Shown piece by piece: positions 5,901 to 8,900 of a stretch of DNA of 64,000 bases. Source of the DNA: Escherichia coli (GTDB lineage: Bacteria > Pseudomonadota > Gammaproteobacteria > Enterobacterales > Enterobacteriaceae); assembly GCF_041886205.1 (NCBI RefSeq), contig NZ_CP169029.1; one strand, written 5' to 3'. Position numbers: made by a program. Numbering within the stretch: the first letter of the stretch is position 1; every line of letters begins with the position of its first letter.

Positions 5901-8900
5901 ATACCTCCCGGTTTTGCCGGGAGTTACATGGCCTGAAATTCTGTATTTCGTTGCTACATTCATTCAAACCACCTGTAACAAAAAGCTGCCTTTGACGAGC
6001 TATTGCTATAAATAAGTGATCTTTTTTCTTTAATTGTTTATTTATTTTAAAATGGTTAAGTTTTGCTAATCATTATGAGCTATTTTTGATAGTTTATCCT
6101 GTGGCGTCGCTCTTAAACTTATATTGTAAATTACTTAGATTTAAATGAGATAATAATTTTGTTAACAATATGAGGTGGGAGATGTTTTCTACAAACTTAA
6201 TACAGAGTAATTATGGTGATTTAAATATTAAAAGTCTGGCTTTTGACTCTTTTAAAGAAAGGCTTGAGTCTACCATGGCGGCACTCACTTTCTTTATATC
6301 AACGGGTCAATGTGACTGCGATGAAATAGCAGAATCAAACTTCAATCGTATGATTGCCTATATGTCTAACATTAACTATGATGCCTCAAAGCCAGGAGCG
6401 CCAGCACTTAGTTTTGATACGTATCTGCAGGACAATGTTAAATATAGAGTGATAATTAATAATCTTTATGGCAGTGAGTTTCGGATAAGAGGTATTAATG
6501 AGAATTTTGTTGGGATGGATTTTACCTGTGAATTCCGACCCGAAAAAATGACGAATATTGATCAATATAAAAAACAGGTTGGTTATTCATTATTTAAGGA
6601 CTATATACTATGAAAAAAATTATATACATCCTGCCGGGAGCATTTTTGCTGCGATTCAAAAAAATGAGAGTCTCCTAAAGTTTCCTTCGATAATATCAAT
6701 GCTTAATATCAATCTTCTTTTTAATCCACTAAATCTTCCGGGAATGGGAAGTGGTGTGCTTGAAGATATTATGAGTATTCCAGATAGTTCACTGAGAAAA
6801 CGTCTCGGGTATGAGGTTTTAAGCTTCTCACTACAGGCACATTCATTGAGCCAGGAATGTATTGATAAGTTGGACATTTTTTTCGCTGACGATCTGTTTA
6901 AATATGAGGCAGTATGCATCGCCGCGATGGAACATTTAAAAAGTAAAGCAACGGCCCCTATACAAAACGGACCGTTGCCAGCATAAGAATTAACGGTGTG
7001 CCAGTTCGGCGTCGTCTTCGCTATCCAGAATGGCTTTATCGGTTTGCTTCAGCCACTGGCTGGTCAGCGTGCCAGCTGTCATCGAGCCACTAACGTTTAG
7101 CGCCGTACGGCCCATGTCGATAAGCGGTTCAACGGAGATTAACAGCGCCACCAGGGTTACTGGCAGGCCCATCGCAGGCAGCACAATCAGTGCGGCGAAA
7201 GTTGCACCACCACCGACACCGGCAACGCCTGCGGAACTAACGGTAACAATACCGACCAGCGTCGCAATCCACATCGGGTCCAGCGGGTTAATGCCAACCG
7301 TAGGCGCAACCATCACCGCCAGCATTGCCGGATACAAACCGGCGCAGCCGTTCTGACCAATGGTCGCACCGAAAGAGGCGGCGAAACTGGCGATGGATTC
7401 AGGAACGCCCAGACGACGCGTTTGTGCTTCCACATTCAGTGGGATAGACGCAGCACTGGAACGGCTGGTAAAGGCAAACGTCAGCACAGGCCATACCTTA
7501 CGGAAGTACTTCAGCGGACTCACGCCATTAATGCCCAGCAGAATGCCATGCACTGCAAACATAATCAGCAGACCGAGGTAGGACGCGACAACGAAACTTC
7601 CCAGTTTGATGATGTCTTGCAGGTTAGAACCTGCAACCACTTTGGTCATTAGTGCCAGAACGCCGTAAGGGGTCAACTGCATGACCAGGCGAACCAGTTT
7701 CATCACCCAGCTTTGCAGGGTATCGATAGCGGTTAAGACGCGTTCACCTTTCGGCGCATCATCCTTCAGCAGTTTCAGCGCAGCTACACCGAGGAATGCG
7801 GCAAAAATTACCACGCTGATAATTGACGTCGGATTGGCTCCGGTCAGATCGGCAAACGGGTTTTTCGGGATAAAGGACAAGACCAGCTGCGGAACGCTCA
7901 GGTCAGAGACTTTACCAACATAGTTACTTTCGATGGCGTTCAGACGTGCAGTTTCTGCACCACCCTGAACCAGACCTTCAGCCGTCAAACCAAACAGGTT
8001 GGTGACCAGCACACCGACCAGCGCCGCAATCAGCGTGGTAAACAAAAGCGTACCGATGGTCAGAAAACTGATTTTGCCTAACTGAGATGCGTTATGCAGA
8101 CGGGCAACCGCGCTCAGAATAGAGGCGAAGACTAACGGCATAACGATCATTTGCAGCAGTTGAACATAGCCGTTACCAACGATGTTAAACCACTGTACAG
8201 AATCTTTAAGTACCTGGCTGTCAGAACCATAAATGGTATGCAGGGCAAGGCCAAAAACCACACCCATCACCAAACCCACCAGCACTTTTTTCGCCAGACT
8301 CCACTGTTTGTGGCGGGTCTGAGCCAGCGCAAACAGCAGTACAACGAACACCACGATGTTCGCAATTAATGGAAAGTTCATCCCCGTTCTCCTGATCTTA
8401 TTATTTCTATCACTGCGTAGCAGTCATAGTGTTGGCGCAAGATTAACAGAACTGTGAGCTGGCTCTTATATTCAAATGGAATTGCTTATTCCAGAAAGGT
8501 GATTTTTGCCTTTTTAGTATTCAACCTGATGCTTAATAAGCCGATGAAACTGGATCTGCAAGGTATTGATCATTTGCGATGACCAACGAACAGCGCTGTT
8601 TTCGGGTAATGAATGAGGCATCCATACCGACCAGACAAATAATGCCATGCAGATAAAACGTTCCAGTTGGTTGCCCTTTTGGGGAACCAGGATAGGTAAG
8701 CGGAAACGCCAGCGGCATGGCCAGAGCAGGGGAACACCGGCGGGTGTCAGCATATCGGCAAGTATGTGGCTTAAATAACCCAGCACCATTCCTTGTAGCG
8801 CATCAGCCGGAATGAACCAGCTTTCAGGAACCTTGAGGTAAAAGGTTGCCAGCAGCGCAAATACCGCCAGCAGACTGTGGGTAAAACCACGATGCCCAAA

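What the first reader, a model, noticed from the sequence alone, without database searches (positions are those of the whole stretch)
6170..6986. ydjO appears frameshifted within an AT-rich, probably horizontally acquired gene
Two overlapping ORFs in different frames (6170..6613 and 6558..6986) together span about the length I recall for K-12 ydjO, with the frame switch near A-rich homopolymer tracts around 6545–6620. This could be genuine pseudogenisation, a homopolymer sequencing error, or a programmed slippage site. The gene and its ~270-bp upstream region are markedly AT-rich, the kind of sequence H-NS typically silences.
Basis: partly seen in the sequence, partly recalled or inferred. Interest (0 to 1): 0.35.

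Follow-up and report, generated by a model that had tools for sequence, protein, structure and literature searches.

The report
Frameshifted ydjO pseudogene in E. coli
A small E. coli-only gene of unknown function (ydjO) is broken here by one extra A, a real inherited mutation that the public record already flags, and the gene is often lost or broken in E. coli, so the finding is ordinary.

Summary
ORFs 6170..6613 and 6558..6986 are the two halves of ydjO (true start ATG 6182; 805 nt against 804 nt in K-12). One inserted A at 6557 splits them.

- **Position:** the insertion lies between two A6 runs, not inside a homopolymer. It turns AATTTGA|TCAATAT into a perfect 14-nt palindrome, which suggests a quasipalindrome template-switch origin.
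- **Not a sequencing error:** the same allele is in a second complete genome (6EVA). The exact 143-aa truncated product is on 140 public contigs, and 10 of 10 fetched assemblies carry the insertion.
- **Not programmed recoding:** only 2 of 5426 complete genomes have it.
- **Already annotated:** RefSeq marks this gene "frameshifted".
- **The gene:** ydjO is an AT-rich orphan confined to E. coli/Shigella, and its upstream region is H-NS-bound in K-12 according to the literature. About 21% of complete genomes lack it. Roughly a third of the rest carry it disrupted, by at least seven other lesions. Intact alleles show dN/dS of about 0.15.

Verdict: a recent, single-lesion pseudogene of a dispensable accessory gene. 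Low interest.

The parts
5630..5893 (+). cedA, the upstream neighbour (context)
   Evidence: ORF; annotated cedA in the identical RefSeq record
5894..6181 (+). AT-rich cedA-ydjO spacer holding the ydjO promoter region. Its K-12 counterpart is a published 'promoter island' and H-NS site.
   Evidence: GC 0.245-0.33; PMC3661553 Table 1 entry 1811053_320 ydjO/cedA, H-NS column 'K'; PMC3946193 lists an RpoD promoter and 'HNS' in this spacer. A simple sigma-70 scan here showed no enrichment.
5948..6975 (.). Approximate extent of the ydjO segment that is absent from ydjO-less E. coli, where about 165 bp of unrelated GC-rich DNA takes its place
   Evidence: Alignment of the window with strain HH45, in which cedA and tcyP are adjacent
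6172..6177 (+). Shine-Dalgarno-like GAGGTG serving ATG 6182.
   Evidence: Sequence; PGAP and the K-12 annotation start at MFSTN
6182..6986 (+). ydjO pseudogene, 805 nt (804 nt when intact)
   Evidence: annotated 'frameshifted' in NZ_AP045833.1
6557..6557 (+). The lesion: one inserted A (AAT-TTG becomes AATATTG), after codon 125
   Evidence: Alignments. It is the only indel relative to K-12, and it is shared only with wlxctx60 and 6EVA among 5426 genomes.
6555..6568 (.). Perfect 14-nt palindrome ATATTGATCAATAT, centred on GATC, created by the insertion. The ancestral form AATTTGA|TCAATAT was imperfect.
   Evidence: only 19 of 2413 possible single-base insertions in ydjO (0.8%) put the new base in an inverted-repeat arm of 7 or more
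6182..6613 (+). Translated remnant: 125 native residues plus 18 out-of-frame residues (IDQYKKQVGYSLFKDYIL), with stop TGA at 6611-6613
   Evidence: the exact 143-aa sequence is present in public collections
6558..6986 (+). Out-of-frame remnant encoding YdjO residues 126-267. The 'TTG start' of the second ORF is simply the Leu126 codon. No ribosome-binding site precedes it.
   Evidence: sequence
6536..6538 (+). Codon 119, CGA and intact here. It is TGA in many related alleles.
6569..6574 (+). A6 run, unchanged here. It is A5 in EC10, G5, 205, M23314 and SY038.
6658..6664 (+). A7 run, unchanged here. It is the main frameshift hotspot elsewhere: A8 in about 15% and A9 in about 5% of ydjO-bearing complete genomes.
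   Evidence: spans of 91 nt in 9, 92 nt in 3 and 88 nt in 1 of 60 evenly spaced rows
6877..6883 (+). T7 run, unchanged here. It is T6 in O157:H7.
   Evidence: the same net length in three O157:H7 records
6990..8381 (-). tcyP (ydjN), the convergent neighbour, whose stop codon lies 3 nt from the ydjO stop

Best explanation
Window 6182-6986 is ydjO inactivated by a genuine, heritable insertion of a single A at 6557. Translation from ATG 6182 reads 125 native codons, shifts frame, and stops 18 codons later at TGA 6611-6613. The 143-aa product lacks the C-terminal 142 residues, which include the most conserved stretch of the protein. The downstream ORF is only the out-of-frame remainder and has no start signal of its own. 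The lesion is recent, because removing the one base restores a full-length ORF that differs from an intact allele (strain 190) by 6 nt and 1 amino acid. It most likely arose by a template switch at a quasipalindrome, since the added A makes the imperfect inverted repeat AATTTGA|TCAATAT perfect; this step is inferred. ydjO is an AT-rich, E. coli/Shigella-restricted orphan gene whose upstream region is H-NS-bound in K-12. It is dispensable: many E. coli lack it and many others carry different disruptions. So this is ordinary decay of an accessory gene.
For: - **The lesion:** two ORFs in different frames, and a single +A against K-12 and 26 other alleles.
- **Annotation:** PGAP flags the gene 'frameshifted' in NZ_AP045833.1, which is 100% identical to the window, and in 6EVA.
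- **Real allele:** the exact 81-nt context occurs in only 2 of 5426 complete genomes. 6EVA is also the nearest genome over the adjacent 8 kb. The exact 143-aa product is on 140 contigs and listed in 161 blocks of the collection. All 10 fetched assemblies carry the insertion.
- **Recent:** the repaired 200-nt core is 100% identical in at least 40 genomes. Strain 190 has an intact 804-nt ydjO that is 6 nt and 1 aa away.
- **The intact gene is a real coding gene:** dN/dS is 0.12-0.29 among intact alleles.
- **Dispensable:** 1126 of 5426 genomes gave no match, with an empty site verified in one strain, HH45. At least seven other lesions were seen. Twelve of the 19 evenly spaced hits that I examined are flagged as pseudogenes.
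- **Orphan:** no Pfam, NCBIfam, PHROG, PADLOC or PDB sequence match. A HMMER search of 1.84 billion representatives found only E. coli-like sequences.
- **AT-rich and H-NS-bound:** for composition; PMC3661553 and PMC3946193 for H-NS.
- **Palindrome:**
Against: - No read-level data could be inspected for this particular assembly.
- No expression or protein data exist for this strain, so loss of function is inferred from truncation, not measured.
- The 143-aa N-terminal fragment might keep some activity.
- The palindrome test was devised after I noticed the palindrome, so it is post hoc (p about 0.008), and the template-switch origin is only suggestive.
- H-NS binding is shown for K-12, not for this strain.
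- The population fractions come from evenly spaced samples of BLAST rankings, not a full census. At least one long-read assembly (ecoli019) shows homopolymer errors that inflate pseudogene counts.
Confidence: 0.92

Rival explanations
1. Sequencing or assembly error: the extra A is an artefact and the gene is intact in the real genome.
For: Frameshifts in AT-rich genes are a common assembly artefact. One other complete genome (ecoli019) shows six homopolymer deletions in this 1.1 kb that look like such errors.
Against: The insertion is not in a homopolymer. The identical allele is in an unrelated assembly from another laboratory, host and country (6EVA). The exact truncated protein is on 140 contigs, and all 10 independent NCBI and Logan assemblies fetched have the same 61-nt context.
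Confidence: 0.01
2. Programmed recoding: a +1 ribosomal frameshift, or loss of one A in the mRNA by transcriptional slippage, within 6552-6610 restores full-length YdjO.
For: The two ORFs overlap by 56 nt and an A6 run (6569-6574) lies in the overlap. Low-level slippage at such runs cannot be formally excluded.
Against: The two-frame arrangement is confined to 2 of 5426 complete genomes, while near-identical alleles are single ORFs. Recoded genes keep the arrangement across orthologues. The overlap contains no prfB-type CUU-UGA, no A-AAA-AAG heptamer in frame, and no run of 9 or more A or T. By established knowledge, efficient RNA polymerase slippage needs longer runs. The RNA fold of 6540-6660 is unremarkable (z = -0.69).
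Confidence: 0.02
3. Phase variation: ydjO is a contingency gene switched on and off by reversible repeat-tract slippage, and this copy is simply in the OFF phase.
For: In other lineages the A7 run 6658-6664 is A8, A9 or A5, the A6 run is A5, and the T7 run is T6. All four combinations of TGA119 and A8 occur, implying recurrent tract changes or recombination.
Against: The lesion in this window is not in a repeat tract and so is not readily reversible. Runs of 6-7 nt are short for efficient switching. Many tract variants sit downstream of a nonsense codon at position 119, so they are secondary changes in an already dead gene.
Confidence: 0.03
4. The truncated 143-aa N-terminal protein is functional (a domain-level gene remodelling, not a loss).
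For: The exact truncated product persists unchanged in at least 140 contigs. The low-confidence model suggests a separate N-terminal alpha/beta part and a helical C-terminal part.
Against: The identity of those copies is explained by recent clonal descent: the whole 805-nt gene is identical in 9 of 10 loci. Residues 176-230, invariant in every intact allele aligned, are lost. Other lineages truncate at quite different points: codons 119, 162, 213 and 252.
Confidence: 0.04

Closest known systems
E. coli K-12 ydjO (b1730; WP_001310874.1), uncharacterised protein YdjO
   Same: Same locus between cedA and tcyP, same start and stop. It is 95.8% identical over 1101 nt, and the repaired protein differs at 14 of 267 residues.
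   Different: K-12 has one 804-nt ORF. The window has +A at 6557 and a premature stop at codon 144.
ydjO of E. coli strain 190 (WP_001384536.1), the nearest intact allele found
   Same: Its 804-nt ORF differs from the repaired window allele at 6 nt (5 synonymous, plus S243A). The 200-nt core around the lesion is identical.
   Different: It lacks the inserted A and is annotated as an intact protein.
Other ydjO pseudogene alleles in E. coli: TGA119, A8/A9 at the A7 run, A5 at the A6 run, G-run deletion at 6807, T6 in O157:H7
   Same: The same gene is independently disrupted, and all are flagged 'frameshifted' and/or 'internal stop' by PGAP.
   Different: The lesions sit at different positions and are mostly homopolymer slippage or a CGA>TGA transition. 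The window's lesion is unique to its small lineage and is non-homopolymeric.
H-NS-bound 'promoter islands' upstream of horizontally acquired E. coli genes (Panyukov & Ozoline 2013, PMC3661553)
   Same: The K-12 counterpart of 5894-6181 is listed as island 1811053_320 (ydjO/cedA). It is associated with predicted foreign genes and H-NS binding. The region here is equally AT-rich.
   Different: H-NS occupancy was not measured in this strain. My simple sigma-70 scan found no excess of promoter-like sites.
Quasipalindrome-templated (template-switch) frameshift mutations, as described by Ripley and studied in E. coli by Lovett and colleagues (from my own knowledge, not checked in the paper library)
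   Same: The mutation converts an imperfect inverted repeat into a perfect one by adding exactly the base the other arm dictates.
   Different: Only the end product is seen, the mechanism cannot be observed, and the test was post hoc.
Programmed frameshift genes prfB (+1) and dnaX (-1)
   Same: Two overlapping ORFs in different frames within one gene.
   Different: There is no conserved slippery site, no stimulator and no conservation of the arrangement among orthologues.

Membership tests
Frameshift pseudogene of a known gene | An intact single-ORF orthologue exists at the same locus | tested here: met
   K-12 has 804 nt / 267 aa. Strain 190 is intact and 6 nt away.
Frameshift pseudogene of a known gene | An indel whose length is not a multiple of three, followed by a premature stop | tested here: met
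   +1 A at 6557; stop at 6611-6613, codon 144
Frameshift pseudogene of a known gene | The lesion is real and not an assembly artefact | tested here: met
   The same allele is in 6EVA and in 10 of 10 independent assemblies, and the product is on 140 contigs. Read pile-ups themselves were not available.
Frameshift pseudogene of a known gene | No full-length protein is made | not testable with these tools
   Needs a western blot or mass spectrometry on this strain
Programmed frameshift / transcriptional-slippage gene | The two-frame arrangement is conserved among orthologues | tested here: not met
   2 of 5426 genomes carry it. Close alleles are single ORFs.
Programmed frameshift / transcriptional-slippage gene | A recognised slippery motif within the ORF overlap (6552-6610) | tested here: not met
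   The overlap was read directly. It holds only an A6 run, with no CUU-UGA, no in-frame X-XXY-YYZ heptamer and no run of 9 or more.
Programmed frameshift / transcriptional-slippage gene | A stimulatory RNA structure or internal SD next to the site | tested here: not met
   Fold of 6540-6660: -17.7 kcal/mol, z = -0.69 against shuffles
Phase-variable contingency locus | The frameshift lies in a simple-sequence repeat | tested here: not met
   The insertion lies between T6556 and T6558 and is not in a run. In other lineages the A7, A6 and T7 runs do vary.
Phase-variable contingency locus | On/off switching within a clone | not testable with these tools
   Needs deep reads or colony-level assays
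H-NS-silenced xenogeneic (horizontally acquired) gene | AT content well above the genome background | tested here: met
   GC 0.245-0.38 against about 0.5 in the flanks
H-NS-silenced xenogeneic (horizontally acquired) gene | Patchy, taxon-restricted distribution | tested here: met
   No match in 1126 of 5426 genomes, with an empty site verified in one of them, HH45. Only E. coli/Shigella sequences appear among 1.84 billion representatives. PMC11057252 agrees.
H-NS-silenced xenogeneic (horizontally acquired) gene | H-NS occupancy and derepression in an hns mutant | not testable with these tools
   Literature for K-12 only: PMC3661553 Table 1 and PMC3946193
H-NS-silenced xenogeneic (horizontally acquired) gene | An identifiable donor or mobility signature | tested here: not met
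   There is no homologue outside E. coli/Shigella. No mobile-element genes or target duplications appear at the boundaries. Acquisition is therefore inferred from composition and distribution only.
Quasipalindrome template-switch mutation | The mutation makes an imperfect inverted repeat perfect | tested here: met
   AATTTGA|TCAATAT becomes ATATTGA|TCAATAT. Only 0.8% of possible insertions do as well (a post hoc test).

The most novel reading that the evidence does not exclude
ydjO may be under recurrent selection for inactivation, or its homopolymer runs may act as low-rate switches. Intact alleles evolve under clear purifying selection (dN/dS about 0.15). Even so, at least eight independent lesions, plus outright absence, are spread across E. 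coli lineages: most of the STEC-rich haplogroup, O157:H7, and this lineage. That pattern would fit a gene that is useful in some niches and costly in others, and the +A allele here would be one more instance.
Probability: 0.08. Interest if true: 0.4.

Novelty: already known. Interest (0 to 1): 0.1.

Why it matters
It matters little for biology. This is one more decayed copy of an uncharacterised, dispensable, H-NS-associated orphan gene, and RefSeq already annotates it as such.

There are two modest practical points.

- ydjO has been promoted as a "conserved signature" marker of E. coli for qPCR water testing (PMC11057252). Yet about a fifth of complete genomes lack it, and this allele has one mismatch to each primer.
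- The lesion is a clean natural example of a non-homopolymer frameshift that perfects a palindrome. It is a reminder that AT-rich-gene frameshifts are not always homopolymer errors.

Tried and rejected
- **54-nt query centred on the A7 run:** it returned nothing, probably because the low-complexity filter left no 28-nt seed. I replaced it with a 90-nt query.
- **Distant homologue P0034** (26% identity, E = 1.5e-36): rejected. Its DNA is E. coli ydjO with A and G systematically swapped in one sequencing run.
- **Domain and family searches:** Pfam, NCBIfam, PHROGs, PADLOC and a PDB sequence search gave nothing usable for YdjO function.
- **AlphaFold2 on a shallow 7-sequence alignment:** it gave pLDDT 52 and pTM 0.39. 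That is too poor for a meaningful fold search, so I ran none.
- **Rfam:** no RNA family in 5000-8500.
- **Promoter and terminator scan:** not enriched over shuffles.
- **Literature search for 'b1730':** it returned only unrelated papers.
- **My interim idea that the whole haplogroup nearest the window is dead** (11 of 11 sampled rows were pseudogenes): corrected after I found an intact, near-identical allele in strain 190.
- **Scan of genome contigs for ydjO in other Escherichia species:** I decided against this expensive scan, because the all-against-all HMMER search and the literature already indicate restriction to E. coli/Shigella.
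Full report
**1. What is in the sequence.**

The 1101-nt segment 5900-7000 is 100% identical to E. coli strain wlxctx60 (NZ_AP045833.1; black-bear faeces, Japan). It matches the ydjO locus in 4300 of 5426 complete E. coli genomes. In that record NCBI's pipeline annotates ydjO as an 805-nt pseudogene, "frameshifted". In K-12 the gene is a single 804-nt ORF of 267 aa.

The annotated start corresponds to ATG 6182 (MFSTN...), which is preceded by GAGGTG at 6172-6177.

GC is 0.245-0.38 from about 5900 to 6900, against 0.46-0.60 in the flanking genes. So the AT-richness is real too.

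**2. The lesion.**
Alignment with K-12 and USMARC-49610, then with 27 alleles in total, shows one difference in length: an extra A at 6557 (AAT-TTG becomes AATATTG), after codon 125.

- Frame 0 then reads 18 foreign codons (IDQYKKQVGYSLFKDYIL) and stops at TGA 6611-6613.
- The second ORF is the out-of-frame remainder, YdjO residues 126-267. Its "TTG start" is simply the Leu126 codon.
- The insertion lies between the A6 runs 6543-6548 and 6569-6574 and is not in a homopolymer.
- The added A makes the imperfect inverted repeat AATTTGA|TCAATAT into a perfect 14-nt palindrome, ATATTGATCAATAT (6555-6568), centred on a GATC.
- Of the 2413 distinct single-base insertions possible in the gene, only 19 (0.8%) place the new base in a perfect inverted-repeat arm of 7 or more.

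This is the signature of a quasipalindrome-templated (template-switch) mutation. I devised the test after noticing the palindrome, so I treat the origin as plausible, not shown.

**3. Real mutation, error, or recoding?**

Evidence that the mutation is real:
- An 81-nt query across the site is matched exactly in only two of 5426 complete genomes: wlxctx60 and 6EVA (human faeces, Singapore). All next-best hits lack the base.
- 6EVA is also flagged "frameshifted". It is the closest genome to the window over the adjacent 8 kb, and the next nearest are at 99.5%.
- The exact 143-aa truncated product is in the public protein collection on 140 contigs and is listed in 161 blocks.
- All ten assemblies fetched (NCBI drafts and Logan assemblies of independent runs) contain the identical 61-nt context. 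Nine contain the identical 805-nt gene.

So this is an inherited allele of a circulating lineage, not an artefact.

Evidence against programmed recoding:
- The arrangement is not conserved.
- The repaired 200-nt core is 100% identical in at least 40 genomes, and 171 are at 99% or more.
- Strain 190 carries an intact ydjO that differs from the repaired window allele by 6 nt and one residue, S243A.
- The overlap 6552-6610 contains no recognised +1 or -1 slippery motif and only an A6 run.
- The local RNA fold is unremarkable (z = -0.69).
- No Rfam family matches.

The single lesion in an otherwise clean ORF shows that the inactivation is recent.

**4. What ydjO is.**
YdjO has no Pfam, NCBIfam, PHROG or PADLOC match, and no significant match (best E-value 0.53) to any solved structure by sequence.

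HMMER against 1.84 billion cluster representatives found only E. coli-like full-length or fragmentary sequences. The one apparent distant relative (P0034, 26% identity) is E. coli ydjO with A and G swapped throughout in one run. Named members are E. coli or Shigella. This agrees with a paper that proposes YdjO as an E. coli/Shigella-specific signature protein (PMC11057252).

An AlphaFold2 model from the shallow alignment was too poor to use (pLDDT 52), so the biochemical function remains unknown.

Among intact alleles dN/dS is 0.12-0.29, while synonymous divergence is high: dS reaches 0.24 overall and 0.35 in the 5' half. So where the gene is intact, it evolves as a real protein-coding gene under purifying selection. 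Residues 176-230 are invariant in every intact allele aligned, and they are lost in the window's product.

For K-12, the cedA-ydjO spacer is listed as a "promoter island" associated with predicted foreign genes and H-NS binding (PMC3661553 Table 1). It is also listed as an RpoD-promoter spacer with an H-NS site (PMC3946193). I found no donor and no mobility signature. In strain HH45 about 1.03 kb (window 5948 to about 6975) is replaced by about 165 bp of GC-rich sequence, with no obvious repeats at the joints. "Horizontally acquired" therefore rests on composition, patchy distribution and taxon restriction.

**5. Population context.**
ydjO is widely lost or broken.

- 1126 of 5426 complete genomes (21%) gave no match.
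- Besides +A6557, the 27 alleles I aligned carry these lesions:
  - CGA>TGA at codon 119;
  - A7>A8 and A7>A9 at 6658-6664;
  - A6>A5 at 6569-6574;
  - a one-base deletion in the G run at 6807;
  - T7>T6 at 6877-6883 in O157:H7;
  - a nonsense codon at position 261.
- In a 60-row even sample of hits to the 90 nt around the A7 run, 9 rows span +1 nt, 3 span +2 nt and 1 spans -2 nt.
- In the 39-row even sample of full-length hits, rows H1-H11 and the O157:H7 row are all flagged as pseudogenes. Seven other rows examined are intact.
- Extrapolating by identity and length gives roughly 14 of 39 (about 36%) disrupted. This is a rough figure from a biased collection. At least one long-read assembly, ecoli019, shows homopolymer errors.
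- All four combinations of TGA119 and A8 exist, which indicates recurrent tract changes or recombination.

The window's lesion is therefore one independent event among many. It is unusual only in being non-homopolymeric.

**6. Comparison with known kinds, and verdict.**

- **Frameshift pseudogene:** every testable criterion is met.
- **Programmed frameshifting:** conservation, motif and stimulator all fail.
- **Phase variation:** the lesion is not in a repeat, so the defining criterion fails.
- **H-NS-silenced xenogeneic gene:** the compositional and distributional criteria are met. Occupancy is known only for K-12, and no donor is identifiable.

The pseudogene is already recorded in RefSeq, and both the gene and its H-NS association are already in the literature, so novelty is "already known". 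Interest is low (0.1).

The most novel reading not excluded is that repeated inactivation of a gene that is otherwise under purifying selection reflects niche-dependent selection for loss, or low-rate switching at its homopolymer runs. I give that about 8%.

Noticed in passing
window ~14325-16222, - strand (NZ_AP045833.1 2319369-2321266): The type III secretion effector gene espL1 is also annotated 'frameshifted' in the source genome. It is a second decayed accessory gene in the same window.
   Followed up: no
L021 (Logan SRR33321306 contig 56313), 622-1521: P0034 looked like a 26%-identity YdjO homologue. It is actually E. coli ydjO with A and G systematically interchanged (256 A>G and 147 G>A, with T and C unchanged). 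This is a data artefact that can pass for remote homology.
   Followed up: yes
L012 (NZ_LR130532.1, isolate ecoli019), ydjO region: Six one-base deletions, all in homopolymer runs, fall within 1.1 kb. They look like long-read assembly errors, so pseudogene counts from 'complete' genomes include some noise.
   Followed up: partly
window 6984-6992: The ydjO and tcyP stop codons are convergent and only 3 nt apart, and the scan predicts no intrinsic terminator between or near them. ydjO is reported as co-downregulated with ydjN/tcyP and the CysB regulon in serum (PMC4145685). That could reflect antisense read-through from tcyP, not ydjO regulation.
   Followed up: partly
window 6825-6844 and 6904-6923: The published ydjO qPCR primers (PMC11057252) each have one mismatch to this allele, while the probe matches exactly. 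In addition, 21% of complete E. coli genomes gave no ydjO match, although the paper presents it as a conserved signature gene.
   Followed up: partly
window 6182-6620 (5' half of ydjO) compared with L002, L014-L018: Synonymous divergence among ydjO alleles is very high for E. coli (dS up to 0.35 in the 5' half, 0.24 overall), and blocks are shared in a mosaic way between haplotypes. This suggests old alleles and recombination at the locus.
   Followed up: partly
L029 (NZ_CP149449.1, strain JX21CE33) 583-1365: This ydjO has a nonsense codon at position 261 and is annotated as an intact 260-aa protein. The last 7 residues are apparently not counted as essential by the annotation pipeline.
   Followed up: no
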